From an uncultured Verrucomicrobiae bacterium (GTDB lineage Bacteria > Verrucomicrobiota > Verrucomicrobiia > Chthoniobacterales > UBA10450): 64,000 nt of DNA. Under the pieces are notes generated by a model. The model worked only from the letters and a program-made list of their open reading frames with translations. It made no database searches and was not told the origin of the DNA. Of the stretch, positions 2,224-63,373 are shown piece by piece. The position numbers and the translations under genes are program-made. How positions within the stretch are numbered: position 1 is the first letter of the stretch; each line of letters begins with the position of its first letter. The stretch lies in NCBI GenBank assembly GCA_963726745.1, contig CAVSDR010000004.1, forward strand, positions 224,001 to 288,000. Reading direction: 5' to 3'.

Positions 2224-3725
2224 TAGCGCCCGTAAACGAAGATGGCCACGCCGCCGATCACGAGGACCGCGATTCCAACGTAGAGCCACATCAAGGTAGT
2301 TTGCGGCGCTGCTTCACCGCGATTGTAGGAAGAGCGATCGGAACGGCCCCGGATGCGCCCCTTGCGCAGGAACCCGTCGTAATGCCGCTGGATCAAATGC
2401 GTTTCTACCTGCCGCATGGTGTCGAGCATTACGCCGACAATAATCAGCAAGCTGGTGCCGCCGAAGAATTGCGCGGTGATAGCTGGCACATTGAGCGATT
2501 GGCTAAGCAGACTCGGAAGAATCGCGATAATCGTAAGGAAGATCGCGCCGGCAAAAGTCAGGCGCGTCATCGTGAAGTCGAGGAACTCCGCGGTCGGCTT
2601 GCCTGGACGCACGCCCGGGATGTAACCGCCGTATTTCTTCAAGTCGTCGGCAATCTGCGAAGGCTGAAACTGCGTCGCGACCCAGAAGTAACTGAAAAAG
2701 AAAATCATCAACGCCAGGGCCACGTAATGCGCCCAGCCATGCGCGAGCGCATCCGAGATCTGGCGTGCGAGCCGGCTGTTTTGGAAAGCCATGCTCACGA
2801 TCGTGGTCGGGAACAACAACAACGCCCACGCGAAGATGATCGGCATGACGCCGGCGTAGTTAACCTTCAAAGGCATATACTGCGTCTGGCCGCCATACAT
2901 CTTCCGGCCGACCACCCGCTTGGCATATTGCACCGTGATCTTGCGCACGCCCTGCGTGACCGCGATGACCGCCGCGATCACGATGAAGAGAAATGCGATC
3001 ATCATGACCAAGATTGCCGGACTCACCTGACCGGTCCCGGCGCCCGTCGGAACGAAAGTCTTCCAGGCCTGGGCAAGCGCTGCAGGCAGGCGCGCCACGA
3101 TCCCCACGGTGATGATGAGCGAGATGCCGTTCCCGATGCCGCGCTCGGTGATTTGGTCACCCAGCCACATCAGGAAAAGAGTGCCCGAAGTGAGCGTAAG
3201 CACGGTGACGATGCGGAACATCATCCCGAGATCGGCCACCAAAGGGATGCCTAATTTACTGACCGTCTCGGTGATCCCCGGCAGCATCGTCTGGTAGGAT
3301 TCCGGATGCTGGAAGGAAACCGCCAGGAGGTAACCCTGGACAATACAAAGCGCCACGGTCGCGTAGCGGGTGTACTGCATGATCTTCTGCCGGCCACCGT
3401 CCTCGCGGGCCAGGCGTCCGAGCTGCGGGATTACGGCCGTGAGCAGCTGCATCATGATCGATGCGCTGATATACGGCATAATGCCTAACGAGAAGATGGC
3501 GCAGTTCTCGAGTGCGCCACCGCTGAATAAGTTAAATAGCGCCGCGACCCCGCCTCCCGATTTCTGCGAGAAGCTGCCCCGGAACCATTCCTGCAGGACG
3601 GCCGCGTTCACTCCAGGCGTGCTGATGGCAGCACCCAGGCGAACAATGACGATCACCGCGAGGGTGAACAAAATCCGCCGGCGAAGCTCGGGGATTTTAA
3701 CGGAATTGAGAAAGGCCGAAACCAT
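2223..3725 (-). CDS. secY: Preprotein translocase SecY
   Basis: IFSLGIMPYISASI, GIGNGISL, IPGVRPG, GGTSLLIIVGV motifs. Confidence 0.99.
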   Translation of the reverse strand: MVSAFLNSVKIPELRRRILFTLAVIVIVRLGAAISTPGVNAAVLQEWFRGSFSQKSGGGVAALFNLFSGGALENCAIFSLGIMPYISASIMMQLLTAVIPQLGRLAREDGGRQKIMQYTRYATVALCIVQGYLLAVSFQHPESYQTMLPGITETVSKLGIPLVADLGMMFRIVTVLTLTSGTLFLMWLGDQITERGIGNGISLIITVGIVARLPAALAQAWKTFVPTGAGTGQVSPAILVMMIAFLFIVIAAVIAVTQGVRKITVQYAKRVVGRKMYGGQTQYMPLKVNYAGVMPIIFAWALLLFPTTIVSMAFQNSRLARQISDALAHGWAHYVALALMIFFFSYFWVATQFQPSQIADDLKKYGGYIPGVRPGKPTAEFLDFTMTRLTFAGAIFLTIIAILPSLLSQSLNVPAITAQFFGGTSLLIIVGVMLDTMRQVETHLIQRHYDGFLRKGRIRGRSDRSSYNRGEAAPQTTLMWLYVGIAVLVIGGVAIFVYGR

Positions 3726-3734
3726 TCCGATTCG

Positions 3735-4283
3735 TTAGCTCTTTTTTTTCGCCGCGCCGCTCTTCTTGGCTGCCGGAGATTTTTTCGCTGCTGCCGCCGC
3801 CGCTTCCGGACGCCGTGGTCCGCGAGGACCCGCTTCCGGCTTCAGGTTCAGCGTGCCGCCGGCGCTTTCGATCTTCGCGCGGGCCGCTTCGCTGGCTTTA
3901 TCGGCCTCGATCGTCAGCCCGTGCTTCAATTCGCCGGTGGCAAGAATTTTGACCCCGGCGCCGTTGCCGCGCACCAGGCCGGCATCACGCAGGAGCTGCT
4001 CCGTCACGGTAGTGCCGGCGTCGAATTCGTTCAGATCACTTAGGTTGACCACCGCGTAAGTCTTATGAAAACGCGCGTTGTTAAAGCCGCGTTTCGGGAG
4101 ACGACGAATGAGCGGCATCTGGCCGCCTTCGAAACCGAGACGAATGCTGCCGCCGGAACGCGCCTTCTGGCCCTTGTGTCCCTTGCCGCTGGTCTTGCCA
4201 TGGCCAGAGCTTTCGCCAATGCCGAGTCGCTTGACCCGATGTTTCGCGCCAGGGCGCGGCTTGAGATTGTGCAACCGCATCAT
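3735..4283 (-). CDS. rplO: 50S ribosomal protein L15
   Basis: [25 protein letters not shown]; Ala/Lys-rich tail. Confidence 0.98.
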
Positions 4284-4843
4284 GACTCGTCACCCTTTCC
4301 GTCCGCCGTCGCCATTGCTGGGCGAATCCCACGGGTCTTGAAAATTTCGTCTTTCCGGCGCAGGCCGCGTAGCGCTTCGATCGTGGCCTTGACCACATTC
4401 GAGTGATTGCTCGAGCCTAACGACTTTGCCAGCACATCCTTGATTCCGACCGCTTCCACGACCGCACGCACGCCGCCGCCAGCGATGACGCCAGTTCCAG
4501 GCGAAGCCGGGCGCAAAAGCACACGACCGCCGCCGAATTCCCCGACCGTCTCGTGCGGGATGGTGTTCAAATGCAGGGACATTTTCTCCATCCCTTTGCG
4601 AGCAGCTTCCGAGGCCTTGCGGATCGCTTCTGCGACTTCATTGGCCTTGCCAAATCCGACACCGACTTTGCCGTCGTGATCGCCCGCCACAATCAAGGCG
4701 CTGAAGCTGAAGCGACGTCCGCCCTTCACGACCTTCGCGCATCGATTGATGAACACGACCTTCTCGGTCGTATCCCCACGTGCTGCTGAGCTCTTATCTG
4801 TCTGGCGTTCCTGACGCCGACCGCCACCGTGTTGTTGTGCCAT
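4280..4843 (-). CDS. rpsE: 30S ribosomal protein S5
   Basis: [27 protein letters not shown]. Confidence 0.98.
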
Positions 4844-6163: not shown

Positions 6164-6166
6164 TCG

Positions 6167-6742
6167 TTAGGCCGCGGCAGGGGCGGCAGGTTTTTTCGCG
6201 CGATCGCTGAAGGGCATGCCCATTTCGGCGAGAAGCGACTTGGCTTCTTCGTTCGTCCGCGCGGAAGTGACGATGGTAACATCAAAACCGATGTTGCGCT
6301 TGATTTTATCGAGCTCGACTTCGGGGAAGATCGACTGATCGGAAACGCCCAAGGTGTAGTTGCCGTTGCCGTCAAAGGCCTTCGGCGAAACTCCACGAAA
6401 ATCGCGGATGCGCGGGAGGGCGGTTTTGATCAAACGCTCCAGGAATTCATACATGTGCTCGCCGCGCAGGGTAACCTTCGCGCCGATGGCCTGCTCCTGC
6501 CGGAGCTTGAAGTTCGCGATGCTTTTCTTCGCACGGGTCTCGGCCGGCTTCTGTCCGCTGATGAGCGCGAGTTCCGCCTTGGCGTCCTCTAGAGCCTGCT
6601 TCACATCGGCTTGTGAACCAACAGAAGTGTTGATCACCACTTTCTCCACTTTCGGGATCTGGTGGACGTTCTTGTAGCCGTGGGTTTCCTGCAGGGCAGG
6701 AACCACGCGCTTTTTGTAGTCGTCGTAAAATTCGTTCTTCAT
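6167..6742 (-). CDS. rplE: 50S ribosomal protein L5
   Basis: ALPRIRDFRG, FDGNGNYTLG. Confidence 0.98.
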   Translation of the reverse strand: MKNEFYDDYKKRVVPALQETHGYKNVHQIPKVEKVVINTSVGSQADVKQALEDAKAELALISGQKPAETRAKKSIANFKLRQEQAIGAKVTLRGEHMYEFLERLIKTALPRIRDFRGVSPKAFDGNGNYTLGVSDQSIFPEVELDKIKRNIGFDVTIVTSARTNEEAKSLLAEMGMPFSDRAKKPAAPAAA

Positions 6743-6745: not shown

Positions 6746-7090
6746 TTACGCCTCCTCTTTGGAGGCTTTCTTTTTAGCCGGCGCTTTCTTCTTCGCGGCC
6801 GCTTTCGGTTTAGCCGACGCCTTGGTCTTGGCGTCCTTCTTGTCGGTCTTCTCCGGGCGATCGAGCACTTTCACATTCGAGATGTGAATCGGGCCTTCGC
6901 GCTCGGCGATTTTGCCCTGCGGATTGTCCTGAGACTTGCGCAGATGCTTCTTGATCATGCGCACGCCCTCCACGAGCACGCGCTGCTTGGTGGCCATCAC
7001 TTCCAGCACCTTGCCGCTGGAACCTTTGAAGTTGCCGGCAATTACTTCCACATTGTCGCCCTTGCGGACGTGCAGCTTGATCCGGTTCAT
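6746..7090 (-). CDS. rplX: 50S ribosomal protein L24
   Basis: [19 protein letters not shown]; Lys/Ala-rich tail. Confidence 0.97.
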
Positions 7091-7990: not shown

Positions 7991-7995
7991 ACTCG

Positions 7996-8421
7996 TTAGG
8001 CGGCAGCCACGTGGTGCCGGGTGAGGAACTTGGTCCGGACTGGCAGCTTATTGGCCGCCAGGCGGAGCGACTCGCGGGCGACCGATTCAGTCACGCCGTC
8101 GAGCTCAAAAAGAATGTTGCCGGGGCGCACGGTCGCAACCCATTTCTCCGGCTGGCCTTTACCTTTACCCATGCGGGTTTCTGGCGGGCGGGCGGTGACG
8201 GATTTGTCCGGGAAGATACGAATCCAAAGCTTGCCTTTGCGTTTCATGTTGCGGGTCAGGGCAACGCGGGCGGCCTCGATCTGGGTGTTGGTGATCCAGG
8301 CGCGTTCCAGCGTCTGGAGCCCGAATTCGCCGAAATCAATCTTGAGCGTGCGGGAAGCGGTCCCCTTGCGGCTGCCCCGCTGGGTCTTGCGATACTTCAC
8401 GCGTTTGGGCATCAATGGCAT
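7996..8421 (-). CDS. rplP: 50S ribosomal protein L16
   Basis: IRIFPDK, RMGKGKG. Confidence 0.99.
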
Positions 8422-8449
8422 GTCAGTGTCTCCTTAAAAAAATCGTTCG

Positions 8450-9133
8450 TTAGGCTTCGACCGGCGCCGGCGGCGGGGTCGATGGCTGAGCCACCGGTTC
8501 CACCGGCGTCTCGTCCTTCTTACAGATCCAGCATTTCACGCCGATCTTTCCGTAAACTGTATTTGCCTCGGCAAAGCCGTAATCGATCGGCGTACGCAGG
8601 GTGTGAAGCGGCACTTTGCCTTCGCGATACCATTCCGAGCGGGAAATTTCCGCGCCGTTGAGGCGGCCGGAGCTGCGCAGGCGGATGCCCTGGGCACCGA
8701 AGTCCATTGCGATCTGCACGGCCTTTTTCATCGCGCGGCGATAAGCGATGCGGCGCTCGATCTGCAGGGCCACGTTCTCGGCCACGAGCTGCGCGTCGAG
8801 TTCCGGCGTTTTGATTTCCTGGATGTCGATCTTGATCTGTTTCCCCTGCGCCATCTTCGAGATTTCCTCGGTCATCTTCTCGATCTCGGCGCCTTTTCGT
8901 CCAATGACGATACCTGGGCGGGCGGTGTGGATGGTCACGCGAATGCTGTTCCACGCACGCTCGATGATGATCTTCGAGACGGCGGCAAACTGCAGCTTCT
9001 TCTTCACGTAATCGCGGATGCGAATGTCGCTATGGAGGAAGGCCGGCATATCCTGCGGCGAGGCATACCAGCGTGAGCGCCAGTCGCGATTGACCGCGAG
9101 GCGGAAGCCAATTGGATTAACTTTCTGTCCCAT
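8450..9133 (-). CDS. rpsC: 30S ribosomal protein S3
   Basis: [30 protein letters not shown]. Confidence 0.99.
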
Positions 9134-9612: not shown

Positions 9613-10404
9613 TTACTTTAAACTCACGTTTTGGCGGGCATCAGCTTGCAGCTTATCCCCTACCTTTATTTTTTCCTTCGTCGTTCCCAATTCCTGAATC
9701 ACCGCCCCGCAAATCTTCTGGCGCACATCGACCACCCGGAGGGTGGCGATCAGGCGGCCGTCGCGCAGCACGCGCAATGGCATCCCAACCTTGACTCCCT
9801 GCCGTTCGCCGAGGTTACCCACGACCAGCGACCACTCGTCTTTCACACTCACCACGCTGCCATCCATCAAGCTGGGCTGCGGCTCCGGCGCTTTCGCCTG
9901 CTGGCTAATCTCGTTCGTCCGCCGCAATTGCGCTTCCACTTCCGCGCGGGCCTTCGCATCGCCGCCCGTTGAAGTCTGGAGCAGCGGCAAAAGCGCTTCC
10001 GTTAACCGCAACATCTGGTCGCGATACTGATCGCGCTCCTTGCGCATCAACTGCAAGTCACTGACCGCGCTTAGGAGCCGTTGCTCCAGCTTCGCACGAT
10101 CCTGACTTGCCGCATCGAGGCCTAATGCTTCCACGCGCAGCTGCAGGTCCGAATACTTTCGGCGGAACAATTCCGCTTCGGCATTCGACTCGGCCAGGCT
10201 CTCCGTGAGGGCCCGGACCGACTGCTGCTGCACCTCGAGCTGCTCGCGCAACTCGCTCAAATTGGATCCTGACAAAGAACTATTTCCCTGCGCCATCAGC
10301 TCACTGGCTGACAAGACGCTGCCTAACAACGCGATCATCGGTTTGCGCCCGACACCGGCCTTTACAGGCCTGCGCCAGTCGAAAAGCGAAAATCGAAAAT
10401 TCAA
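9613..10404 (-). CDS. Hypothetical, probably exported coiled-coil protein with C-terminal beta domain, inserted in the S10 operon
   Basis: 263-aa ORF fills the rpsS-rplV gap and its TAA abuts the rplV ATG. Signal-like segment (MIALLGSVLSASELMA-Q), heptad-rich middle, C-terminal LVVGNLGERQGVKVGMPLRV. Start uncertain. Confidence 0.85.
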   Translation of the reverse strand: MNFRFSLFDWRRPVKAGVGRKPMIALLGSVLSASELMAQGNSSLSGSNLSELREQLEVQQQSVRALTESLAESNAEAELFRRKYSDLQLRVEALGLDAASQDRAKLEQRLLSAVSDLQLMRKERDQYRDQMLRLTEALLPLLQTSTGGDAKARAEVEAQLRRTNEISQQAKAPEPQPSLMDGSVVSVKDEWSLVVGNLGERQGVKVGMPLRVLRDGRLIATLRVVDVRQKICGAVIQELGTTKEKIKVGDKLQADARQNVSLK

Positions 10405-48474: not shown

Positions 48475-49245
48475 TTACCGGCTAAAACGCGCCCAGATCG
48501 GCGCATGATCCGAAGGCTCCTTGCCCTTCCGCATCTCGCGCTCTACCCCCGCTTCCACGCAGCGCGCGCCTAACGAGTGGCTCGCCAGGACCGCGTCGAT
48601 CCGCAGCCCGCGATTCTTTGGAAAGGAAAGCATCCGGTAATCCCACCAGGTAAAGATGCCGCCTTCCGGCCGGCAGAGTCGCAAAGTGTCGGCTAAACCC
48701 GCGGCGCAGAGTTCCCGGAAAGCCGCCCGTTCACCCTCCGAGCACATGATCGACCCGCGCCAAAGCTCCGGGTCGTGCACATCCACGTCTTCCGGCGCGA
48801 CGTTGAAATCGCCGCAAACCGCGAGGTCGCTCGAGAGATCTTCATGCCTCGCAAGGCAGCGCCGCAGCCGCGCATACCAGCGCATCTTGTAGTCGTAGGC
48901 CGGCGAGCCGACCGCCTGGCCGTTGGGCGCGTAAACCGAGACGATGCGGACGCCGCCGACCGTTCCGGCAAGCACCCGCGCCTGCGGATCCTCCTCCTCA
49001 TCGCAGAGCGCTGCGCGCACGTCGGTGATCTCGCGGCGCGCGAGAATGGCCACGCCGTTATACGATTTCTGCCCGTGAAAGGCCGAGAAATAGCCGGCGC
49101 TTTGCAATTCCTCGGCGGGGAATTGTTCGTCGGTGCATTTCGTTTCCTGGAGGCAAACCACGTCCGGCTGCGTCTCCGCCAGCCAACCGAGCAATCGCTC
49201 CTGCCGCTTGCGCAGCGAGTTGATGTTCCAGGAGACGATTTTCAA
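48475..49245 (-). CDS. xth: Exodeoxyribonuclease III
   Basis: SWNINS, LQETK, YNGVAI, YAPNG, GDFN, FTWWDYR, GLRID, SDHAP. Confidence 0.96.
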   Translation of the reverse strand: MKIVSWNINSLRKRQERLLGWLAETQPDVVCLQETKCTDEQFPAEELQSAGYFSAFHGQKSYNGVAILARREITDVRAALCDEEEDPQARVLAGTVGGVRIVSVYAPNGQAVGSPAYDYKMRWYARLRRCLARHEDLSSDLAVCGDFNVAPEDVDVHDPELWRGSIMCSEGERAAFRELCAAGLADTLRLCRPEGGIFTWWDYRMLSFPKNRGLRIDAVLASHSLGARCVEAGVEREMRKGKEPSDHAPIWARFSR

Positions 49246-50629: not shown

Positions 50630-50644
50630 GGCGCAAAAGATTCG

Positions 50645-53737: not shown

Positions 53738-54633
53738 AGCGCGAGCGCGGCGCGCATCGCGGCGAGCGGCGCTTCGCGGTCGAACCAATGTTCGAAGGAA
53801 AGCGCGCCCTGGTGCAGCAGCATCGAGAGCCCGCCGGCGACGCGCGCGCCGGCTTCCTCGGCTGCGACCACGAAGGGCGTGCGACCGTCGCGATAGACCG
53901 TGTCGTAAACCAGCAGGTGCGGCGCAAGCCAGGAGGCGGGTATCGGCGAGGCCTCACCACGATGCAGGCCGAGCGGAGTGGCATTGATCACGAGGTCGGA
54001 GTTCGCGATTTGAAAGCGCAGCGCCGCCTCGCTCCACGCCACGGCCTCGAGCCGGGCGACCGGCCCAAGCACGCGCGCCTCGCGAAAGAACGCCGCCAAT
54101 TCGTCGGCTAATTTCTGCGCCTTCGCGAGGTCGCGATTGGCCAGCACCAGGCGTTCGCAGCCTTCGCTTGCGCATTGCTGCGCGATCGCGCGCGCGGCCC
54201 CGCCGGCGCCTAACAAGAGCACGCGCAAATCGCGCAGGTCGACCGAAAACTCCGCGCGGATCGCGCGCGAGAAGCCGGGCCCGTCGGTATTGGAGCCGAT
54301 CATTTCCCCGGCCGCAAAACGCACGCAATTCACCGCACCGCAGCGCTGGGCGAAATCGTCGACCTGCGTCATCAAGGGCAAGGCCGCGGCCTTGTGCGGA
54401 ATGGTCAGGTTCACCCCGACGAAGTCGTTCTCCGCCATTAATCGCAACGCTTTCACCAGCTCGTCCGGCGCGATCTGGAAACGCGCGTATTCCATCTCCA
54501 AGCCGCAGGCTTGCAGCGCGGCCTGCATCATCTGCGGCGAACGCGAGTGCGCCACCGGATCGCCGAGCACGCCGAGACGGATGGCGGGCTCGATTCCCTG
54601 CTCCAGGTCCGCCAGCGAGTAGACTTCCTTCAC
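53734..54633 (-). CDS. aroE: Shikimate dehydrogenase
   Basis: [45 protein letters not shown] overlaps the upstream TGA. Confidence 0.94.
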
Positions 54634-55581
54634 TTCGTTTGCGTGGAGAGGAACCAGTCGACAAACTTCGGCAAGCCCACGGCGAGCGGGGTGGTCGGGT
54701 GGTAGCCGAGAAGCTTCTTCGCCTTGGAGATATCCGCGCAGGTTAGCGGGACGTCGCCGGGTTGCTCGGGCAAGTTGCTCGATCCGGGCTTTTTTGCCTA
54801 ACGAGTGCTCGATCCCGGCGATCAGTTCCCGCAGCTCGACGGTTTGGCTTTCGCCAAGGTTAAAGACGTCGAAGCGCGGGCCCTGATAATCGAAAGCGGC
54901 CATGACTCCCTGGATGATGTCGTCGATGTAGGTGTAATCGCGCCGGGTCGAGCCGTCGCCGAATTGCTGGATCGCCTGGCCCGCGTGGATCCGCCGGGTG
55001 AACTGGTGGATCGCCAGATCGGGCCGTTGGCGCGCGCCGTAGACGGTGAAAAAGCGGAGCGCGACGACGCGCAAATCGTAGAGATGCGAGTAAGTCGAGC
55101 AGAGGAACTCGCCGGCTATTTTGCTCGCGGCATACGGGCTGATCGTCTGCGTGAGATGCTCGCTTTCGGAGAACGGGACGGTCTTGCAGATGCCGTAGAC
55201 CGAGGAGCTGGAGGCGAAGATGAAGCGCTCGATTCCGGTGGCGCGCGCGGCTTCCAGGAGGTGGAGCGTGCCGTCGACGTTGGTGTCGAAATAAAGCTGC
55301 GGCTGCGCGATCGACGGCCGCACTCCGGCGCGCGCCGCGAGATGCGCGATGGCGTCGAATTTCTCCCGGTGAAAAAGCGCGCGCACCCCGGCGCTGTCGC
55401 GCAAGTCGAGCCGATGGAGCTGCACCTGGCCGGCGACAGCCGCGAGGTTGGCCTGTTTGATCGCCGGATCGTAAAAGTCGTTGAAGTCGTCGAGAATTGA
55501 GACTTCGTGACCGGCAGCGAGCAACTTCTCCACGAGGTGCGAACCGATAAAGCCCGCGCCGCCGGTGACCAGTGTTCGCAT
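54630..55581 (-). CDS. NAD-dependent nucleotide-sugar epimerase, UDP-glucuronate 4-epimerase-like (one extra base near 54770)
   Basis: [35 protein letters not shown]; corrected end [15 protein letters not shown]...FVDWF..K*. Confidence 0.92.
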
Positions 55582-55597: not shown

Positions 55598-56242
55598 ATG
55601 AAGCCCCAGACGAGCAAGGCCCGAACCGTGATCGCCTTCCTGGCGGTCTTCCTCCTGGCCATGTCGCTGGCTATTTTCCTGCGCGCGCCCTGGCGGGAAT
55701 GGCCGCGCGTCCCGGGCTTGCAGCTTCCGTCGGCCTTGGAGTTGGCGGCGCTGCCGACCGCGACGGGTTTCGATTACCCGTTAGGGAACCGCGACGGCGC
55801 GCTGGCTTACAACGCGCAGCCGTTCACCGAAAACCGGCATTTAGGCGACGACTTGAATGGCATCGGCGGCGAGAACAGCGACCTGGGCGATCCGGTCTAC
55901 GCGATCGCCGACGGCCGGGTGTTGCTCGCGACCGAAGGCGGGCCCGGCTGGGGCAATGTCCTCATCCTCCTGCATGCTTACGACGAGGGCGGGACGCGGC
56001 GTTACCTGCAATCGTTCTACGCACATCTCGATGCTTTCAAGGTCGCGCCCGGCGCGGTCGTCCGGCGCGGCCAGGAGATCGCCACAGTCGGGAATGCGCA
56101 CGGGAAATACCTGGCGCATCTCCATCTCGAGCTGCGCGAATTTCTCACGCCCTACATCGGGCCGGGCTATCGGGCGGAGACAAGCGGCTGGCTAAATCCG
56201 AGCGGCTTTATCGCCGGGCATCGGCCGGCTAACCGCGATTAG
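55598..56242 (+). CDS. M23 family peptidase
   Basis: HLGDD, GWGNV, YAHL, HLHLE. Confidence 0.9.
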   Translation: MKPQTSKARTVIAFLAVFLLAMSLAIFLRAPWREWPRVPGLQLPSALELAALPTATGFDYPLGNRDGALAYNAQPFTENRHLGDDLNGIGGENSDLGDPVYAIADGRVLLATEGGPGWGNVLILLHAYDEGGTRRYLQSFYAHLDAFKVAPGAVVRRGQEIATVGNAHGKYLAHLHLELREFLTPYIGPGYRAETSGWLNPSGFIAGHRPANRD

Positions 56243-56987: not shown

Positions 56988-57911
56988 ATGAAGACCACCT
57001 TCGCCCTTCTCTCGGCCGCCCTGGTCGCCGGCGCCACGGCTTTCGCCCAGGACGCTTCCGATAAACAGCTCACGAGCACACGTTATCGTGAAGTGGCCAC
57101 CACGGAGGAGCGGACCGCACTCGACCTTTTCCAGGTCGACGGCTCCTACGTCTTCGGGAGTGACGTGAAGCGCGACGGGATCAACTATGGCGAGCAGGAA
57201 GCGGTCGACAGTTCGATCGATTACTCCCATCGCTTCTTTCTCGCGGGGAAAATTTACCTGCGTCTCGGCGGCGCTTACGGACGCTTCGATTTCGGCGAGA
57301 CCGCCGCACCCATCCCGGATTCGCTGCAATACGTGAACGCCCGGGTCGCCCTGGAATACATGGTCGGGAACGACATTGGCGCTTTCCTCCAATTCAACCC
57401 CGGCTTCTACACCGAGCGCGCCTTCAATATTTCTTCCTTCGACATCCCGATCACCGCCGGGCGCGTTTTCGTCCTCCAGCCGCGAAAGCTCTTCCTCTTC
57501 GTAGGCGTGAATACGGCCTTCCTCCGCGGCGAGTATCCGGTGCTTCCGCTCGTTGGGCTTGTCTGGCGGCCGAATCCGCAGTGGACCCTGAACCTGCTCC
57601 CGCCCGATCCGCGGGTCATCTATTCGCCAAATAAGAACCTCGATTTCTGGGTTGGCGGCCAACTCGTCGGCTGGTCTTTCCGCACCGATCGCGAGAACGC
57701 AATCGTCCCGCAGCGCCTGAACGGAGCGCAGATTGATTATTCGGAATATCGCGGGGCGCTCGGCATCACTTTCCACCCGTCGGAGCACGTCGCGGTGGAT
57801 CTCGGCGGCGGTTACGTTTTCCAGCGTCGCTTCAATTTCGAGCGTGCGGGGGTGGAGTATAAGGCCGACGGCGCCCCGTTTGTGCGGGCTTCGCTCAAGG
57901 CGGAGTTTTAG
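56988..57911 (+). CDS. Outer-membrane beta-barrel protein (DUF6268-like)
   Basis: Signal peptide, amphipathic beta strands, 'YPVLPLVGLVWR..QWTLNLLPP', C-terminal Phe. Confidence 0.75.
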   Translation: MKTTFALLSAALVAGATAFAQDASDKQLTSTRYREVATTEERTALDLFQVDGSYVFGSDVKRDGINYGEQEAVDSSIDYSHRFFLAGKIYLRLGGAYGRFDFGETAAPIPDSLQYVNARVALEYMVGNDIGAFLQFNPGFYTERAFNISSFDIPITAGRVFVLQPRKLFLFVGVNTAFLRGEYPVLPLVGLVWRPNPQWTLNLLPPDPRVIYSPNKNLDFWVGGQLVGWSFRTDRENAIVPQRLNGAQIDYSEYRGALGITFHPSEHVAVDLGGGYVFQRRFNFERAGVEYKADGAPFVRASLKAEF

Positions 57912-57920
57912 CCAGCGCTT

Positions 57921-59114
57921 TCACTGCTCGATGCGGCGCAAGAGAAAGGCCGCGCCGACGAACGTAACCACCGTTCCAGCGCACAACGCGAGCAGACTTG
58001 GCCCGTAGTAAGCGAAGCCGGCATCGTAGAGATTCACCAGGCGAAACGCCCGGCAAAAATAGGTCAGCGGGAAGAACTCCGAGATCCAGCGGATGCCGGC
58101 CGGTAATTGCTCCAGCGGCGCAAACGCGCCCGACAAAACAAAGACCGGCAGCAAAAAGAAAACCGAGAACTGGATCGCCTGCGTCTGGCTGCGCGAGATC
58201 GCGGAGATGATCAATCCCAGGCCTAACGAGCAAAGAAGGAAGACCAGGCAGATGACCGCGAGCACGAAGGGGTGCCGGAAGGTGACGCCAAAATGCCAGC
58301 CCGCCAGGGCGACGATCATCGCGATCAACCCAAGCGAAATCGCCAGATACGGAATCACTTTGCCGATCACGATCTCGCTGCGGCGGAGCGACGTGACCAT
58401 CAGTTGAAAAAGCGTCCCGGACTCGCGCTCGCGCGCAATCGTGCAAGCCATGAGCGTGACCGTGATCAACTGCAGGATCAGTCCGATGACGCCGGGGATG
58501 ACGTAATCGATGAAGCGCTCCTTCGGGTTATAGAGCAGCGTTTGCCGGATCGTCCACGGCTCCATCGCGGAGACAAATTGCTTCCGCACTTCCACCGGAA
58601 TCTTCTCCGCGAGGTCGAAAACCTCCTGCGGCAGGGCGTCGATCATCTCCTGCCGTTCGCCCAGCTGAAATTCGCCTAACGACTCCTGCACGCTCCCGAA
58701 AAGTTGCGGCGCGATATTGGTGTCGCTGGCGTCGAGGTAGAGCCGCAGCGGGACCGGTTTGCCATCGGCCAGTCCCGCGCTCCAGCCGGCCGGAATCACC
58801 AGCGCGGCCTGCACGCCCTGGTGGAGCAGGTCAATCTGCGCCTCGGTGCCGCTGGCTTCGCGCGTGCGCCAGCGGAAGGTCTTGTTGGTGGAAATTTTGT
58901 CGACGAAACGCTGCGTCTGCGGTGTGGCATCGGCGTTGATCAGGAGCGCGGGCACATCGGTCATTTCCCCGGCCTCGAAAGCGTGTCCGAAGACGAGCGT
59001 GAAAATAGGCGGCAGGATGACCAGGAGCAGGAGGACCCGGCGATCGCGCCAGATGTGGAGAAATTCCTTCCGCGCCACGCTGGCGACTGCTGCGACAAAA
59101 CCGGAACGCATCAT
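57921..59114 (-). CDS. ABC-2 type exporter permease (YbhR/YbhS-like)
   Basis: ARKEFLHIWRDRR, LYNP, IARERESGT, LSGAFAPLE. Confidence 0.92.
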   Translation of the reverse strand: MMRSGFVAAVASVARKEFLHIWRDRRVLLLLVILPPIFTLVFGHAFEAGEMTDVPALLINADATPQTQRFVDKISTNKTFRWRTREASGTEAQIDLLHQGVQAALVIPAGWSAGLADGKPVPLRLYLDASDTNIAPQLFGSVQESLGEFQLGERQEMIDALPQEVFDLAEKIPVEVRKQFVSAMEPWTIRQTLLYNPKERFIDYVIPGVIGLILQLITVTLMACTIARERESGTLFQLMVTSLRRSEIVIGKVIPYLAISLGLIAMIVALAGWHFGVTFRHPFVLAVICLVFLLCSLGLGLIISAISRSQTQAIQFSVFFLLPVFVLSGAFAPLEQLPAGIRWISEFFPLTYFCRAFRLVNLYDAGFAYYGPSLLALCAGTVVTFVGAAFLLRRIEQ

Positions 59115-60144: not shown

Positions 60145-61074
60145 ATGCGCATCTCCTCTTCGCCGGCCCGAATTTTAGCCGGCGTTATCGTGCTCGCGGG
60201 AGCCGCAACGCTCCGCGCGGATCCCGTCGCCGAGCTGGCGAGCTTCTCGGTTTTCAACGCGGTCGACCTCGCGCAGCTCAAAGGCGAAGCAAAGACCCAG
60301 CGCGGCGAACGCATGAGCAACCCGCGTTTTCTTTCCGTGCAAAGTGTCTGGGTTTCGCCCGGCTCGCCGCAGGAGCTCGCAGCCGCGCTGCGTGGTTTCA
60401 ATCCCGCGCGCCATCCGGAAATGCACGTCCTGCTGCATCAAAACGGCAACAACTTCTCCTCGTTAGGCAAGCTGCCCGCGGGCGCGCCGGTTGATTGGCT
60501 CCGGCAGGCCACGGAGAGCCGCTCGAAGGAATTGCAGATCAGCCAGGAAGAAGCGGCGAAGAGCGGTGCGTTTGCTGATTTTTGGAGCGCAATCCTGAGC
60601 GCCCGCGCCGCCACGGGAGTCTTCGGCCAGCCGTCTTACAGCCACACGGGGAGCAACCTCAAACCGAGCGAACAGATCAACGCGCTCCTCGCGCAGCAGC
60701 CGAAACTTCGGAAGCAATTCGACGGCCTCATCGGCGACAAGGGCGAGACTTACTGGGAGCTGCTGGAGGTGGAACGGAAGGGCGTGCTCACGCTCGGCGC
60801 CTCTTTCAATCGCACCGCCAGCGGTGGCGCCGCGCTTCAGGCCGCCGACGTCTTGTATTACGCCAGCGGCGGCTACGATGCCGCGATCACGCTCTATCAA
60901 ATGTGGCCGGTGACGGTGGACGGAAAGCCAGCGACGCTCGTCTGGCGCGGCGATCTCATCTCGTCTTCCGAGCTCGCCGGGCTCGCCGGGGTGGAGCGGC
61001 TCGGGTCGGAGTCGGCGATGATGAAAGATGTCGGCCGCTCGATCCGCTTTTTCCGTGGCGACACGGGTCGTTAG
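60145..61074 (+). CDS. Hypothetical exported protein
   Basis: Signal peptide ending TLRA-D; no recognised motif. Confidence 0.75.
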   Translation: MRISSSPARILAGVIVLAGAATLRADPVAELASFSVFNAVDLAQLKGEAKTQRGERMSNPRFLSVQSVWVSPGSPQELAAALRGFNPARHPEMHVLLHQNGNNFSSLGKLPAGAPVDWLRQATESRSKELQISQEEAAKSGAFADFWSAILSARAATGVFGQPSYSHTGSNLKPSEQINALLAQQPKLRKQFDGLIGDKGETYWELLEVERKGVLTLGASFNRTASGGAALQAADVLYYASGGYDAAITLYQMWPVTVDGKPATLVWRGDLISSSELAGLAGVERLGSESAMMKDVGRSIRFFRGDTGR

Positions 61075-61097
61075 GCGCTAACCTCCGCCGCTCGTCC

Positions 61098-61961
61098 ATG
61101 AAAAAACGTCTCCTGCTCGCCCTTGCCATCTCGCTGTCTGCCGGCTCGCTCCGCGCCGGACCAATCCCGTTCGAAGTCGATGTGCAGACTTCGCTCTCGA
61201 GCGATTCCGAGCTTGCCCGTGGCGGCCGGAAGGTCAGCGGCCTCGACGAAGATTACCTGGCCGCGCGCTTCATTTACACGCCGCGGGTTAGCTTTGGCAT
61301 TCTGCGCTTGGGCGCGGCCTATGAGCGCTTTGGGTTCCGCGCGCCGGCCATGTTCGAGGTCCCGCGCGGCCTGCAATCCCTGACTGCGGTGGTGGGGCTG
61401 GACACGCAGTTTTCCGATTCCATCCTGGTGCGCTTCGAGGCGCAGCCTGGTCTCTACAGCGGCACGCGACTAAGCGGGGGCGACTTCCATGCGCCTTTCA
61501 TCCTCGGCGGCACCTACATCTACAGCCCGGATCTCCAGTTCATCTTCGGCGTGAGCGTCGATTACGAACGCAGCTATCCGGTCTTCCCGGGGCTCGGGGT
61601 GCGTTGGCGGCTCGGGCGGCAGTGGGTCCTCAACGCGGTCCTTCCCACTCCGCGGCTCGAATACGAAATTGCCGACGGCTTCACCCTCTACGCCGGGGCC
61701 GAACTCAAAGGCTCGACCTTCCGGGTAGACGACAACTTCGGAAACGCGCGCGGGAATCGCCGCCTGAACGACGCCGTCATCACCTATAGCGAGGTGCGCA
61801 CCGGCGCCGGCTTCGAGTGGAAGCTCGCCCCGCAGGTGAAGTTCGCGCTCGAGGGCGGTTTCGTGCCGTATCGCAATTTCGATTTCCACCGCACCGACGT
61901 GCGCTACCACCAGGAAAGCGGCGGCGCTTACTTCTCGGCCTCGATCGGCGCGGCTTTCTAG
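61098..61961 (+). CDS. Outer-membrane beta-barrel protein (DUF6268-like), paralog of 56988-57911
   Basis: MKKRLLL..LRA signal, 'YPVFPGLGVRWR..QWVLNAVLP', YSE.R, C-terminal Phe. Confidence 0.75.
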   Translation: MKKRLLLALAISLSAGSLRAGPIPFEVDVQTSLSSDSELARGGRKVSGLDEDYLAARFIYTPRVSFGILRLGAAYERFGFRAPAMFEVPRGLQSLTAVVGLDTQFSDSILVRFEAQPGLYSGTRLSGGDFHAPFILGGTYIYSPDLQFIFGVSVDYERSYPVFPGLGVRWRLGRQWVLNAVLPTPRLEYEIADGFTLYAGAELKGSTFRVDDNFGNARGNRRLNDAVITYSEVRTGAGFEWKLAPQVKFALEGGFVPYRNFDFHRTDVRYHQESGGAYFSASIGAAF

Positions 61962-63373
61962 GCGAGGTGCCGATCGAGCGCGCCGATCTTGCGCGTTTCC
62001 GGCCAGCGCCAGGCCACTCCGAGCACGACCAGGATCGTGCCGATGCCGCCGCCGACCACGCTCACCACCGGGCCGAAAAAGGCCGCGGTCAATCCCGACT
62101 CGAGCGCGCCAAGTTCGTTCGAGGTGCCGATGAAAATGTTGTTTACCGCCGAGATGCGGCCGCGCATTTCATCCGGCGTGAGCAGTTGGATGATCGTATG
62201 CCGCACGACCACGCTCACGCTGTCGAAGACGCCGGTCATGAAGAGCATCGCCAGCGAAAGCCAGAGCGAGCGCGAAAGCCCAAAGAGAATCGTGGCCACG
62301 CCAAAGCCCGCGACGCACCAGAGCAGCGTCCGGCCCGCGCGCCGCATCGGCGGCAGGTAAGCGATCAGGATTGCCATGACCAATCCGCCCGCGCCCGGCG
62401 CCGCCCGCAGCCAGCCCAGACCAACTGGGCCCGCATGCAGGATCTTGTCGGCAAAAATCGGCAGCAACGCGGTCGCCCCACCGAGAAGCACGGCAAACAT
62501 ATCCAGCGTGATCGTGGCGAGGATGACCTTCTTGCTCAGGACAAAGCGCAGCCCGCTCGCGAGACTGCGCAGCGCGCCGCCTTCCACCCGTCCGCCCTGG
62601 TCGCCGCTCTGGATCGGGAGCACGAGCGCGAAAAACGTGAGCGCACAGACCGCATCGAGGAAGTAGAGGAAGTGAAAGCTGGTGCGCACGAGCAGCAAAC
62701 CGGCGAGCGCCGGCCCCGCGATCGAGCCGATCTGGAACATGCTCGAGTTCCACGTGACCGCGTTGGCAAATTGATCGCGCGGCACCAGCTTTGGAAAATA
62801 AGCCGAGCGCGCGGCCCAGCCGAACGTCCGGCCGCAAGCCGCGACGAAGAGAATCAGGTAAATCAGCGGCACCGAGAGATCGTCGAAATGATACGTCGCG
62901 TGGCGTTCAAAGACGGCGGCGACGGCCGAGAGCCCACGATTCCCCGCGGTGAGAAAACGCCATGCCGGCAGGGCGAGGTGTTGCCACGAGACCAGCATCA
63001 GGGCGAGCGAGCAAAGCGCACTCAGCGCCTGCGAGACCAGGATGATGTATTTGCGATTATAGCGGTCGGCGATGTGCCCGGCGGGCAGCGAGAGCACCAG
63101 CACCGGAAGCGCGATCGCCAGGCCCACCAGGCCAAGCGCGGTCGCGGAATGAGTGCGCTGGTAAATCTCCCACTCGACCGCAACCACCAGCATCTGCCGG
63201 CCGACCACGGAAACGAGATTGCCTAACGAGTAAAAGCTGAAGGCGCGGATGCGAAAAGCCGCATACGGATCGTGCCGCGCTTTCCCGTTTGTCGGCAGCG
63301 TGCCCTCGGCCGTGGCCGGACGGTTCACCACCGGGCGCTCATACGCCGGCTCGTCGCCTTTCCCCTCGGCCAT
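61958..63373 (-). CDS. MFS transporter (EntS/DHA3-like)
   Basis: GHIADRYNRK motif A, LDMFAVLLGGATALLP, TPDEMRGRIS, SNELG. Confidence 0.92.
   Translation of the reverse strand: MAEGKGDEPAYERPVVNRPATAEGTLPTNGKARHDPYAAFRIRAFSFYSLGNLVSVVGRQMLVVAVEWEIYQRTHSATALGLVGLAIALPVLVLSLPAGHIADRYNRKYIILVSQALSALCSLALMLVSWQHLALPAWRFLTAGNRGLSAVAAVFERHATYHFDDLSVPLIYLILFVAACGRTFGWAARSAYFPKLVPRDQFANAVTWNSSMFQIGSIAGPALAGLLLVRTSFHFLYFLDAVCALTFFALVLPIQSGDQGGRVEGGALRSLASGLRFVLSKKVILATITLDMFAVLLGGATALLPIFADKILHAGPVGLGWLRAAPGAGGLVMAILIAYLPPMRRAGRTLLWCVAGFGVATILFGLSRSLWLSLAMLFMTGVFDSVSVVVRHTIIQLLTPDEMRGRISAVNNIFIGTSNELGALESGLTAAFFGPVVSVVGGGIGTILVVLGVAWRWPETRKIGALDRHLA

What the first reader, a model, noticed from the sequence alone, without database searches (positions are those of the whole stretch)
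3483..63229. Highly iterated non-palindromic 9-mer GCCTAACGA: possible DNA-uptake-sequence-like signal
Seen: 30 exact copies in 64 kb (about 1 per 2 kb), 13 forward and 17 reverse. There are also many one-mismatch variants (e.g. GCCTAACAA at 10321, GGCTAACGA at 36330, TCGTTAGAC at 11550). A rough independent-base estimate at about 65% GC predicts fewer than one copy. The motif sits in different reading frames: S-L-G using TTA (rare at this GC), G-L-T with CTA, P-N-E, and as the stop codon of rplE, rplP, rpsC, 50645-51889 and 60145-61074. It also occurs intergenically (27497). It is therefore a DNA-level signal. Known: Neisseria DUS and Pasteurellaceae USS are 9-10-mers of similar density with no strand bias, whereas Chi/KOPS are strand-skewed and HIP1 is palindromic. 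Inference: an uptake sequence, a nucleoid-protein site or a methylation/repair-driven motif in this lineage.
Basis: partly seen in the sequence, partly recalled or inferred. Interest (0 to 1): 0.85.

Follow-up and report, generated by a model that had tools for sequence, protein, structure and literature searches.

The report
Uptake-signal-like DNA words in soil Verrucomicrobia
A nine-letter DNA word is written about once every 2.6 kb through the genes of this uncultured soil bacterium and most of its family, much as Neisseria and Haemophilus tag their own DNA for uptake, and the family carries several such unrelated words, sometimes two in one genome, whose reader is still unknown.

Summary
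GCCTAACGA (W1) occurs 30 times in the window against 0.33 in shuffles. It occurs 1312 times in the 3.4-Mb genome against 14-22 under codon-aware and motif-masked nulls. Both strands are equal, there is no replichore polarity, and every stop-free frame is used. 181 copies supply stop codons, and 430 of 755 Ser-Leu-Gly tripeptides are spelled TCG-TTA-GGC.

Shorter words, CTAA bias and assembly artefact do not explain it. W1 is enriched in 60 of 81 sampled genomes of one Chthoniobacterales (Udaeobacter-related) family and in none of 12 other families of the order.

New here:
- The family holds further unrelated words: AAGATCGACA (W2) in other genera, together with W1 in four genomes.
- This genome has its own second word, GYYGGCTAAW (W3): 958 copies, 17 in the window, enriched in 3 of 34 congeners.

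The signature matches DNA uptake sequences (DUS/USS). ComEC, DprA, PilT and secretins are present but do not track the words. No ComP-type receptor was found. Six candidate reader or methylase genes failed phyletic tests. Function is untested.

Best reading: words maintained by biased uptake or transfer of kin DNA (about 0.45).

Earlier scan notes describe similar words in other Verrucomicrobia genomes; I did not check them.

The parts
3483..3491 (+). W1 copy inside secY (gene on - strand). It is read antisense as TCG-TTA-GGC = Ser-Leu-Gly of the invariant FSLGI.
   Evidence: 12 of 77 secY orthologues use the same spelling
4415..4423 (+). W1 copy inside rpsE (S5). It is shared with G013 and absent in G005 and G002.
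6164..6172 (-). W1 copy whose TAA is the stop codon of rplE (L5)
7993..8001 (-). W1 copy whose TAA is the stop codon of rplP (L16). It is present in all four genomes aligned.
8447..8455 (-). W1 copy whose TAA is the stop codon of rpsC (S3). It is specific to G000 in the four-genome alignment.
19680..19688 (-). W1 copy inside a 1382-aa ORF with no Pfam family (18692-22837, -)
22917..22925 (+). W1 copy, intergenic by my gene caller
27497..27505 (-). W1 copy, intergenic by my gene caller
27592..27600 (+). W1 copy at the end of a doubtful 60-aa called ORF; effectively intergenic
27942..27950 (-). W1 copy, intergenic by my gene caller
30305..30313 (-). W1 copy inside the 1476-aa PATR-repeat protein gene (28635-33062, -)
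30441..30449 (+). W1 copy inside the PATR-repeat protein gene
32175..32183 (+). W1 copy inside the PATR-repeat protein gene
33150..33158 (-). W1 copy, intergenic by my gene caller
34147..34155 (+). W1 copy, intergenic by my gene caller
37651..37659 (-). W1 copy inside a 463-aa ORF with no Pfam family (36335-37723, -)
38189..38197 (-). W1 copy inside an AlgX-like SGNH hydrolase gene (37758-38402, -)
39261..39269 (-). W1 copy inside the MBOAT acyltransferase gene (38880-40346, +)
40185..40193 (-). W1 copy inside the MBOAT acyltransferase gene
41733..41741 (-). W1 copy inside a 157-aa ORF (41601-42071, +)
48568..48576 (+). W1 copy, intergenic by my gene caller
50642..50650 (-). W1 copy whose TAA is the stop codon of a CHASE2-domain gene (50648-51925, -)
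51369..51377 (-). W1 copy inside the CHASE2-domain gene
52763..52771 (+). W1 copy inside nadA (51962-52909, -)
54796..54804 (+). W1 copy inside an epimerase/shikimate-dehydrogenase-domain gene (53737-55662, -)
58221..58229 (+). W1 copy inside an ABC-2 transporter gene (57924-59534, -)
58674..58682 (+). W1 copy inside the ABC-2 transporter gene
60460..60468 (-). W1 copy inside a 320-aa ORF (60112-61071, +)
61068..61076 (-). W1 copy that supplies both stop codons of two convergent genes: TAG for 60112-61074 (+) and TAA for 61071-61376 (-)
63221..63229 (+). W1 copy inside an MFS transporter gene (61961-63373, -)
6773..6782 (-). W3 copy (second word, GYYGGCTAAW)
   Evidence: 17 in window against 0.61 expected
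6809..6818 (-). W3 copy
9900..9909 (+). W3 copy
14464..14473 (+). W3 copy
26757..26766 (-). W3 copy
30552..30561 (+). W3 copy
32118..32127 (-). W3 copy
35574..35583 (+). W3 copy
38602..38611 (+). W3 copy
41238..41247 (+). W3 copy
41587..41596 (-). W3 copy
47872..47881 (-). W3 copy
48688..48697 (+). W3 copy
54103..54112 (+). W3 copy
56187..56196 (+). W3 copy
57907..57916 (-). W3 copy
60174..60183 (-). W3 copy

Best explanation
GCCTAACGA (fuller form SSCTAACRAV, with an intolerant core CTAAC.A) is a lineage-specific 'self' word of a soil Verrucomicrobia family related to Candidatus Udaeobacter. It is written into the chromosome by point substitutions and held there by a directional, population-level force.

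The most likely force is the one known for DUS and USS. A surface or periplasmic DNA-binding component of a type IV pilus/ComEC uptake route prefers fragments that carry the word. Alleles that gain or keep the word are then taken up and recombined into kin more often than alleles that lack it (molecular drive). A bias on the donor side, for example in packaging or export, would leave the same footprint and is not excluded.

Shown here: the word's statistics, anatomy, evolutionary dynamics and phyletic range, and the presence of uptake hardware. Inferred: that uptake or transfer bias is the force, and that a specific reader exists. The other words (W2 in other genera, W3 in this species and two congeners) imply several readers with different specificities that are gained and lost on genus-to-species time scales.
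For: 1. Size of the excess. 1312 copies against 14-20 expected. Inside coding sequence, 964 against 22 in 20 synonymous-codon shuffles.

2. No polarity. 681 forward and 631 reverse. Neighbouring copies have the same orientation 656 times and different orientation 649 times. Spearman correlation with GC skew is -0.05 (p = 0.70, 69 bins). Across 81 family genomes the totals are 26,698 forward and 26,628 reverse.

3. Placement limited by constraint.
- All four stop-free frames are used: 430, 104, 227 and 203 copies. The two frames that contain a stop are used as real stop codons 107 times (TAA) and 74 times (TAG), among 2961 called genes.
- Density is 0.33 per kb in coding sequence and 0.43-0.67 per kb between genes.
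- 430 of 755 SLG tripeptides are spelled TCG-TTA-GGC, against 4.2 expected.
- In secY the peptide FSLGI is invariant in 77 orthologues, and 12 of them use this spelling.

4. The proteome has been reshaped. SLG occurs 755 times against 407-536 for its five permutations. PNE occurs 232 times against 99 expected. The abstract of PMC2817400 reports about a two-fold rise of USS/DUS-encoded tripeptides.

5. The recognition profile looks like a protein's, and near-cognates are drained. One-off variants at positions 0, 1 and 7 are 8-18 times enriched. At core positions there are 332 against 540 expected.

6. Copies arise by several substitutions and are then kept.
- Against the word-poor congener G002, orthologues of 58 G000 sites differ at 2.98 of 9 positions (background 2.14); 7 of 58 are identical.
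- Against the word-rich congener G013, 30 of 64 sites are identical (background 12.5%), only 6 differ at 1-2 positions, and 28 differ at 3 or more.

7. Spacing. Gaps under 200 bp number 32 against 98 expected. The same holds in G056.

8. The word is absent from atypical DNA.
- Motif-free gaps of 20 kb or more number 4 against 0.5 expected.
- The two largest gaps are low-GC polysaccharide clusters.
- The two mobile RM/methylase loci checked for W1 (C4 end and C5 end) carry none. The N6 methylase fragment at the start of C6 has copies nearby, at 2068 and 4886.
- The abstract of PMC2817400 reports the same for genes that lack homologues.

9. Phyletic range resembles DUS/USS. W1 is at least 3 times its control in 60 of 81 genomes of one family (36 genera). 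In 12 genomes of 12 other families of the order there are at most 14 copies of the 10-mer. Other lineages carry other words.

10. Uptake hardware is present: full-length ComEC, DprA, an HHH_3 (ComEA-like) ORF, 6 PilT-family ATPases, 2 PilB-like ATPases, 3 secretins and about 11 prepilins.
Against: No uptake or transformation has been tested. My searches found no paper on competence in this lineage.

The uptake genes do not discriminate between genomes with and without words. ComEC was found in 78 of 81 family genomes. PilT was found in all five genomes checked. Both sets include G053, which has no hyperabundant word in the 400 kb I sampled.

No ComP_DUS-family receptor reaches the cut-off: best score 21.9 against 27.3 bits.

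Two unrelated words are active in one genome: W1 and W3 here, W1 and W2 in G056, G080, G098 and G046. This has not been described for DUS or USS, and it fits patchy, modular systems such as defence or RM systems at least as well.

Inverted pairs in terminators are rare here: 15 close opposite-strand pairs among 1312 copies. By contrast, the abstract of 10.1101/2025.10.24.684340 reports that about half of DUES lie in terminators.

Each of the six candidate genes tested against the words' phyletic pattern failed.

Gain needs 3 or more substitutions through intermediates that are not themselves enriched. A stepwise drive must explain this.
Confidence: 0.45

Rival explanations
1. The words are self-markers read inside the cell by a nuclease, recombination or defence system. 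This would be a Chi-like 'this is my DNA' signal that does not depend on orientation. Each word would belong to its own patchily inherited system. Selection would favour many copies because each one protects or repairs its neighbourhood.
For: The words are patchy, modular and sometimes co-resident, as defence or RM systems typically are. They are absent from foreign-looking islands. Sites are strongly maintained once formed. Short-range repulsion suggests that one copy per neighbourhood is enough.
Against: The defining polarity of Chi and KOPS is absent. The excess, about 90-fold, far exceeds what I recall for Chi; that figure is recalled, not checked. No reader was identified. I know of no orientation-independent precedent.
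Confidence: 0.15
2. The words are recognition sites of DNA methyltransferases, like HIP1. They would be enriched through methylation-linked repair, or because methylated copies improve the survival or recombination of incoming DNA.
For: HIP1 is a hyperabundant word recognised by two methylases and is now proposed to aid transformation (abstracts of PMC13756078 and PMC4390886; listing of 10.1101/2024.09.10.611283). G000 encodes one C5 methylase, one N4/N6 methylase and N6 (HsdM-like) methylases. Methylase specificities are modular and patchy.
Against: W1, W2 and W3 are asymmetric and 9-18 bp long.

No Vsr was found at E <= 0.1 in a genome that is 94.7% complete.

Vsr-type correction can draw only on one T-variant pool. 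Here the orthologues differ at 3 or more positions.

The three methylases tested do not track the words:
- The N4/N6 enzyme was found in 76 of 81 genomes regardless of words.
- The HsdM-like enzyme was found in 22 of 81, with 89-97% identical copies in other genera.
- The C5 enzyme was found in 8 of 81.

Other methylase families were not searched.
Confidence: 0.12
3. The words are binding sites of an abundant nucleoid or chromosome-organising protein, kept by selection on chromosome structure.
For: Density is even: per 50 kb the mean is 18.9 and the variance 23.9. Close pairs are depleted. Sites are conserved between word-rich congeners. HIP1 has been read this way (abstract of PMC5861425).
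Against: The words are dispensable. Congeners carry from 51 to 1404 copies of the 10-mer, and G053 has no word at all. Unrelated words replace each other between genera, and W3 is enriched in only 3 of 34 congeners. Sites are bought at the cost of amino-acid changes. An essential architectural role does not fit this turnover.
Confidence: 0.1
4. The excess is a by-product of composition, a short-word mutational bias, a dispersed repeat, or an assembly or basecalling artefact.
For: G000 is a 7-contig assembly and carries at least one probable indel error, a split fusA.
Against: All nulls fail by 45- to 90-fold. CTAA is not over-represented. Flanks are unconserved beyond about 4 bases. The same word is enriched in dozens of independent assemblies, many of them with hundreds of contigs, and at orthologous positions.
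Confidence: 0.01

Closest known systems
USS of Pasteurellaceae (Haemophilus influenzae type: 9-nt core plus weaker flanks)
   Same: Both are asymmetric 9-10-nt cores with weaker flanking preferences. Both have about 1300-1500 copies per genome on both strands, mostly inside genes in several frames. Here 73% of copies lie in coding sequence, against 65% for H. influenzae (table heading of PMC2817400, seen in the outline). Both show about two-fold inflation of the encoded tripeptides, absence from genes without homologues, and family-level conservation. Even spacing in Haemophilus is recalled, not checked here.
   Different: The phylum and the word differ. No uptake bias has been shown here. Two unrelated words can be active in one genome. 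For USS a minor pilin, ComN, has been predicted (listing of 10.1101/2025.06.16.659825; not read).
DUS of Neisseriaceae and its dialects, read by the minor pilin ComP
   Same: Both are lineage-specific words with related lineages carrying other words. Both are depleted in mobile or foreign DNA (abstract start of PMC7371117, shown in the listing). Type IV pilus, ComEC and DprA hardware is present in both.
   Different: DUS dialects are variants of one word. W1, W2 and W3 are unrelated in sequence apart from short shared cores. No ComP_DUS family member was found. Inverted pairs in terminators are rare here, whereas about half of DUES lie in terminators according to the abstract of 10.1101/2025.10.24.684340.
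HIP1 (GCGATCGC) of cyanobacteria
   Same: Both are hyperabundant (HIP1 is 15-300 times over-represented), conserved within and between ORFs, and of unresolved function. HIP1 has recently been proposed as an uptake recognition sequence (abstracts of PMC5861425 and PMC13756078).
   Different: HIP1 is palindromic and is recognised by two orphan methylases. The words here are asymmetric, and no tested methylase tracks them.
Chi, KOPS and other polar chromosome words
   Same: All are short, asymmetric, over-represented, taxon-specific words.
   Different: Those words are skewed with replication direction (established knowledge, recalled). W1 and W3 are unskewed at every scale tested.
SRM/NTS hairpin repeats cut by Ssn nucleases (PMC11893778)
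   Same: Both are repeats present in hundreds of copies, tied to a patchily distributed protein family with varied specificities and linked to transformation (abstract and sections 6, 7 and 10 read).
   Different: SRM repeats are about 30-bp hairpin-forming elements that cluster around genes and typically flank ssnA. W1 is a 9-10-nt word without a hairpin, and three quarters of its copies lie inside genes. I did not search for an Ssn homologue.

Membership tests
DNA uptake enhancing sequences (DUS/USS) | Short non-palindromic word, hundreds to thousands of copies, both strands, genome-wide, far above chance | tested here: met
DNA uptake enhancing sequences (DUS/USS) | Fragments that carry the word are preferentially taken up or transform better (the functional definition) | not testable with these tools
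   Needs uptake or transformation assays. No cultured member is known to me, and my searches found no paper.
DNA uptake enhancing sequences (DUS/USS) | Conserved across a family, with other words or dialects in related lineages | tested here: met
DNA uptake enhancing sequences (DUS/USS) | Accumulates in long-resident DNA, is absent from recently acquired DNA, and inflates the cognate tripeptides | tested here: met
   abstract of PMC2817400
DNA uptake enhancing sequences (DUS/USS) | Host has type IV pilus, secretin, PilT, ComEC and DprA uptake machinery | tested here: met
   The machinery is also present in relatives that are word-free or word-poor.
Neisseriaceae DUS specifically | ComP-family minor pilin receptor (Pfam PF16732) | tested here: not met
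   best score 21.9 bits against a cut-off of 27.3
Neisseriaceae DUS specifically | Frequent inverted pairs that form terminators | tested here: not met
   15 close opposite-strand pairs among 1312 copies. One clear hairpin pair lies at C3:1052258-1052281.
HIP1-type highly iterated palindromes | Palindromic word that contains the site of a cognate orphan methylase | tested here: not met
   W1 and W3 are asymmetric. Three methylases do not track the words. Methylation itself is not testable here.
Chi / KOPS / architecture-imparting words | Orientation skewed with replication direction | tested here: not met
REP / MITE / SRM-type dispersed repeats | Longer conserved unit, usually a hairpin, mostly intergenic, spread by insertion | tested here: not met
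   Flanks are unconserved. 73% of copies lie in coding sequence. Copies arise by substitution in alignable orthologous sequence.

The most novel reading that the evidence does not exclude
One of the most abundant soil bacterial lineages (the Udaeobacter-related Chthoniobacterales family) may run a modular kin-DNA 'barcode' system. Several unrelated 9-18-bp words would each have their own reader. They would be written thousands of times through genes. Two can be active in one genome, and they are replaced on genus-to-species time scales. If these words bias DNA uptake or transfer, this would be the first uptake-sequence system outside Proteobacteria apart from the HIP1 proposal. It would also be the first with multiple simultaneous specificities, and evidence that natural transformation is common in uncultured soil Verrucomicrobia.
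Probability: 0.3. Interest if true: 0.92.

Novelty: new variant of a known kind. Interest (0 to 1): 0.8.

Why it matters
DNA uptake sequences are described from only two proteobacterial families. The abstract of a 2025 comparative preprint still lists only these two. Cyanobacterial HIP1 has recently been proposed as a third case.

Here the same genomic footprint appears in a whole family of uncultured, globally abundant soil Verrucomicrobia. Three features have no precedent in the classic systems:
- Unrelated words occur in sister genera.
- Two words are active in one genome.
- One word (W3) is young enough to be enriched in only 3 of 34 congeners.

If the words bias DNA exchange, they are direct evidence for frequent, kin-restricted recombination in bacteria that cannot yet be grown. 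They would also be a natural experiment on how uptake specificity is born and replaced. In practice they could serve as a marker for core versus foreign DNA and for binning in soil metagenomes.

If the words do something else, they define an unknown sequence-specific system strong enough to respell more than half of all Ser-Leu-Gly tripeptides in a proteome.

Tried and rejected
1. Shorter-word or CTAA mutational bias: rejected.

2. Replichore or strand polarity: none.

3. Terminator pairs: rare.

4. A different dialect in the word-poor congener G002: none. W1 is still its top 9-mer, 21 against 1.1 in 400 kb.

5. Candidate readers or drivers tested by phyletic pattern; all failed.
- DUF7305 proteins next to minor pilins: found in 48 of 81 genomes, missing from many W1-rich ones and present in word-free G053.
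- Pilin-like protein at C4:322993-324162: no full-length match in the other 80 genomes of the family draw. Within the genus it matched only G005, G018 and G012, which lack W3, and not G011 (71% complete) or G015 (90% complete), which have W3.
- N4/N6 methylase, HsdM-like methylase and C5 methylase.
- ComEC and PilT are ubiquitous.

6. ComP_DUS family: below the cut-off. Vsr: none.

7. Phage test. A 14-mer holding W1 was scanned in IMG/VR. It matched 91 stretches, of which 80 were read; 67 of those 80 hold only the seed copy, and extra W1 copies run at 0.015 per kb. These are probably chance hits in unrelated phages, so the test says nothing about phages of this family.

8. Literature. The word or its complement appears only as primer-like strings in the 20 papers listed of the 250 that hold it. 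Searches for uptake sequences with Verrucomicrobia or Udaeobacter found nothing relevant.

Full report
**Observation**

The window is G000:C4:224001-288000, from a genome of 3,406,779 bp in 7 contigs with 64% GC. In 100 dinucleotide-preserving shuffles the mean was 0.33 and the maximum 2.

Genome-wide there are 1312 copies, 681 forward and 631 reverse, at 0.32-0.53 per kb on every contig. W1 is the second commonest 9-mer. GCCTAACGAG is the commonest 10-mer, with 820 copies.

**Nulls**

- Markov orders 1-3 predict 15.9-19.7 copies.
- An order-2 model built after masking the word predicts 14.2.
- For a codon-aware null I called genes with a crude GC3-based ORF picker of my own: 2961 genes, 86% coding. 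I then shuffled synonymous codons within each gene. In 20 shuffles the mean was 22 copies in coding sequence against 964 observed. Ten codon-order shuffles gave 3-12.

Orders 4-5 predict more (84 and 702), but they are contaminated by the word itself.

CTAA occurs 6289 times against 6803-7335 expected, and 58% of all CTAA lie inside W1-like or W3-like words.

**Anatomy**

Flanks carry little information: G at +9 (62%), T and not G at +10, A/T at +13, and nothing beyond. W1 is therefore not part of a longer repeat.

The one-mismatch spectrum is sharply position-specific. Positions 0, 1 and 7 tolerate change (202, 443 and 146 copies against 17-24 expected). Variants at positions 2-6 and 8 total 332 against 540 expected. 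The effective word is SSCTAACRAV with an intolerant core, and near-cognates are drained rather than enriched.

Placement of the 1312 copies:
- 964 lie fully inside called genes.
- 156 lie at gene edges.
- 192 lie between genes.

Every frame without a stop is used: antisense TCG-TTA-GGC 430, antisense +1 104, sense +1 227 and sense +2 203. The two frames that contain a stop are used as real stops. The TAA ends 107 called genes, and the complementary TAG ends 74.

In the window this includes rplE, rplP, rpsC and a CHASE2-domain gene. At 61068 one copy supplies both stops of two convergent genes.

Density is 0.33 per kb in coding sequence. Between genes it is 0.60 (tandem), 0.67 (convergent) and 0.43 (divergent) per kb.

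**No polarity, even spacing**

Adjacent copies have the same orientation 656 times and opposite orientation 649 times. Orientation is unrelated to GC skew (rho = -0.05, p = 0.70, 69 bins of 50 kb). Only 15 close opposite-strand pairs exist. One pair forms a clear hairpin between convergent genes at C3:1052258-1052281.

Short gaps are depleted: under 50 bp, 5 against 25; under 200 bp, 32 against 98; under 500 bp, 177 against 231.

Long word-free gaps are in excess: 15 kb or more, 11 against 3.7; 20 kb or more, 4 against 0.5. The two largest gaps (C7:60-95 kb and C6:414-438 kb, GC 0.59-0.60) are polysaccharide or O-antigen-type clusters.

The two mobile RM/methylase loci that I checked for W1 (the C4 end and the C5 end) are also word-free. 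The N6 methylase fragment at the start of C6 has copies nearby, at 2068 and 4886. A conserved orphan methylase region has normal density.

**Cost to proteins**

- 430 of 755 Ser-Leu-Gly tripeptides in called genes are spelled TCG-TTA-GGC, against 4.2 expected from codon usage.
- 430 of 3005 TTA codons and 227 of 1597 CTA codons sit in the word.
- SLG itself is inflated: 755 against 407-536 for its five permutations and 471 expected. PNE occurs 232 times against 99 expected.
- In secY the peptide FSLGI is invariant in 77 orthologues. 12 of them, G000 included, spell SLG as the word; the others mostly use CTC, CTG or CTT for Leu.

The abstract of PMC2817400 reports about two-fold inflation of uptake-sequence tripeptides, and a lack of uptake sequences in genes without homologues, in Haemophilus, Actinobacillus and Neisseria.

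**Dynamics**

In a four-genome alignment of the ribosomal-protein region (about 81% identity), W1 sites align with ordinary sequence in the other genomes. 5 of 8 sites are species-specific.

Against the word-poor congener G002 (205 kb aligned, 75% identity):
- Orthologues of the 58 G000 sites differ at 2.98 of 9 positions, against a background of 2.14.
- 7 of 58 are identical.
- The T and the second A of the core change most often, from ancestors such as GCCGAGCGA.

Against the word-rich congener G013 (196 kb aligned):
- 30 of 64 G000 sites are identical, against a background of 12.5%.
- 6 differ at 1-2 positions and 28 at 3 or more.

Sites are therefore all-or-none. They are built by several substitutions and then held. 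With SLG sites more than half saturated, shared sites may be parallel gains, so I cannot date them.

**Phyletic range**

SecY places the genome among MAGs titled Chthoniobacterales, Verrucomicrobiota, Spartobacteria or Candidatus Udaeobacter (82-93% identity). Chthoniobacter flavus is at 73%. This agrees with earlier scan notes on this genome.

The 10-mer is enriched to very different degrees in the 18 other congeners sampled with it (51-1404 copies; controls 13-57). In 12 genomes of 12 other families of the order it has at most 14 copies.

In an even draw of the family (81 genomes with G000, 36 genera, tallied):
- W1 is at least 3 times its reversed-word control in 60 genomes.
- It is at least 10 times the control in 22.
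- It is at most 1.5 times the control in 7.
- The maximum is 4336 copies in 3.2 Mb.

Three genomes in this draw (G032, G036, G043) are flagged unpublished, as are G001, G008 and G113 in the genus draws. They enter the tallies, but no conclusion depends on them.

**More words**

*W2.* G063 has no W1 excess, yet it carries its own asymmetric word, AAGATCGACA: 81 copies in 310 kb against 2.1 expected. Its 9-mer AGATCGACA reaches 500 copies or more in 26 of 81 family genomes, up to 4941. It is at background in G000 (60 copies). Four genomes have at least 500 copies of both W1 and W2.

In G056 (400 kb) both words are active and independent. W1 has 253 copies and the 9-mer AGATCGACA 690. There is no fixed spacing between them, and core one-off variants of both are rare.

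*No word.* G053 (400 kb) has no hyperabundant word at all.

*W3.* After masking W1, G000 itself shows a second word, GYYGGCTAAW, with upstream preferences (S at -6, A at -5, W at -4).
- There are 958 copies, 482 forward and 476 reverse; the control count is 76.
- 74% lie in coding sequence, in several frames.
- Neighbours share orientation in 474 of 951 cases.
- 17 copies lie in the window, against 0.61 expected.

W3 is enriched in G000 alone among the 81 family genomes, with a modest excess in the unpublished G036. Within the genus it is enriched in 3 of 34 genomes: G000, G011 (394 against 74) and G015 (254 against 102).

**Machinery**

G000 encodes:
- a full-length ComEC (DUF4131, Competence and Lactamase_B domains);
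- DprA, next to topA;
- a small HHH_3 ORF;
- two PilB-like ATPases with GspF- and GspG-like genes;
- a second T2SS-like cluster;
- three tandem 130-aa pilins and further minor pilins;
- 6 PilT-family ATPases above the curated cut-off;
- 3 secretins.

None of this discriminates between genomes with and without words. ComEC was found in 78 of 81 family genomes. PilT was found in all five genomes checked: G053, G063, G056, G013 and G002. No ComP_DUS member reaches its cut-off.

Six candidates failed a phyletic test: the DUF7305 pilus-associated proteins, a pilin-like protein at C4:322993-324162, a conserved N4/N6 methylase (found in 76 of 81), an HsdM-like methylase (found in 22 of 81, with 89-97% identical copies in other genera), a C5 methylase (found in 8 of 81), and ComEC/PilT as above. 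No Vsr was found.

**Interpretation**

Every measurable property matches the genomic footprint of DUS and USS: excess, strand symmetry, use of frames, inflated tripeptides, absence from foreign DNA, family-level range with other words in related lineages, a protein-like tolerance profile, and even spacing. The hardware for uptake is present.

The best-supported mechanism is therefore a molecular drive through biased uptake of word-bearing kin DNA, followed by recombination. A donor-side transfer bias remains possible. I give this 0.45.

Three things count against it:
- the complete lack of functional evidence;
- the failure of the uptake genes to track the words;
- the co-existence of unrelated words in one genome, which fits patchy modular systems.

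The rivals are an intracellular self-marker read by a nuclease or defence system (0.15), a methylase-linked word like HIP1 (0.12) and a nucleoid-protein site (0.10). Artefact or compositional bias is excluded (0.01).

**Literature**

- The word appears only as primer-like strings in the 20 papers listed of the 250 that hold it or its parts.
- Searches that paired uptake sequences with Verrucomicrobia or Udaeobacter found nothing relevant.
- The abstract of a 2025 preprint still defines DUES as DUS of Neisseriaceae and USS of Pasteurellaceae.
- HIP1 has recently been proposed as an uptake recognition sequence (abstract).
- Ssn/SRM hairpin repeats (PMC11893778; abstract and sections 6, 7 and 10 read) differ in anatomy.
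- I saw no supplements of any paper.

Earlier notes of this scan describe similar words in other Verrucomicrobia genomes. Their letters were withheld, so I could not tell whether any of them is W1.

**Limits**

- Gene calls are my own crude ones.
- Relatives other than G000 were sampled (310-400 kb) or only counted.
- The control in the genome counts is the reversed word.
- MAGs are incomplete, so 'not found' is not 'absent'.

Noticed in passing
window, 17 sites from 6773 to 60183 (listed under parts); genome-wide in G000: A second hyperabundant asymmetric word, W3 = GYYGGCTAAW, with upstream preferences S, A and W at -6 to -4. It has 958 copies in G000 and 17 in the window against 0.61 expected. 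It is enriched in only 3 of 34 genomes of the genus (G000, G011, G015).
   Followed up: yes
L049-L066 (G063), L073-L092 (G056); not in the window: A third word, AAGATCGACA(W), is hyperabundant in other genera of the same family, with up to 4941 copies of its 9-mer. It co-exists with W1 in four genomes. G053 (L179-L198) has no such word.
   Followed up: yes
window 13445-15630 (- strand): fusA (EF-G) is split into two overlapping ORFs in different frames. The GTPase domain lies in 14806-15630 and domains II-V in 13445-14887. This is probably an indel error of the assembly in an essential gene.
   Followed up: partly
window 9616-10404 (- strand): A 263-aa ORF with no Pfam family sits between rpsS and rplV inside the S10 operon. 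Earlier scan notes describe the same arrangement in other Verrucomicrobia.
   Followed up: partly
G000 C4:371575-372615 (L177:2575-3615): An HsdM-like N6 methylase has 89-97% identical copies in five other genera of the family, whereas the rest of the genome is about 75% identical. This points to recent horizontal spread of an RM system within the family. The locus carries no W1.
   Followed up: partly
G000 C3:981068-982039 (L175:1068-2039): An N4/N6 DNA methyltransferase was found in 76 of 81 family genomes at 58-77% identity, as an orphan-like core gene. In several genomes the match is split or holds stop codons.
   Followed up: partly
G000 genome, not located: Long tandem arrays of the hexamers GCCAAC (about 140 overlapping 12-14-mers) and CCGACT top the 12-mer and 14-mer lists.
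   Followed up: no
G000 genome: Stop codon use among my called genes is nearly even (TAG 1050, TGA 961, TAA 950). That is unusual for a 64% GC genome. W1 accounts for part of it: 107 TAA and 74 TAG stops lie in W1 copies (W3's share was not counted). The figure rests on a crude gene caller.
   Followed up: no
L151 (genome contigs record titled Spartobacteria bacterium AMD-G4), secY: A distant relative (71% SecY identity) also spells the conserved SLG of secY as the W1 word. This may be chance, or W1 may reach beyond the family.
   Followed up: no
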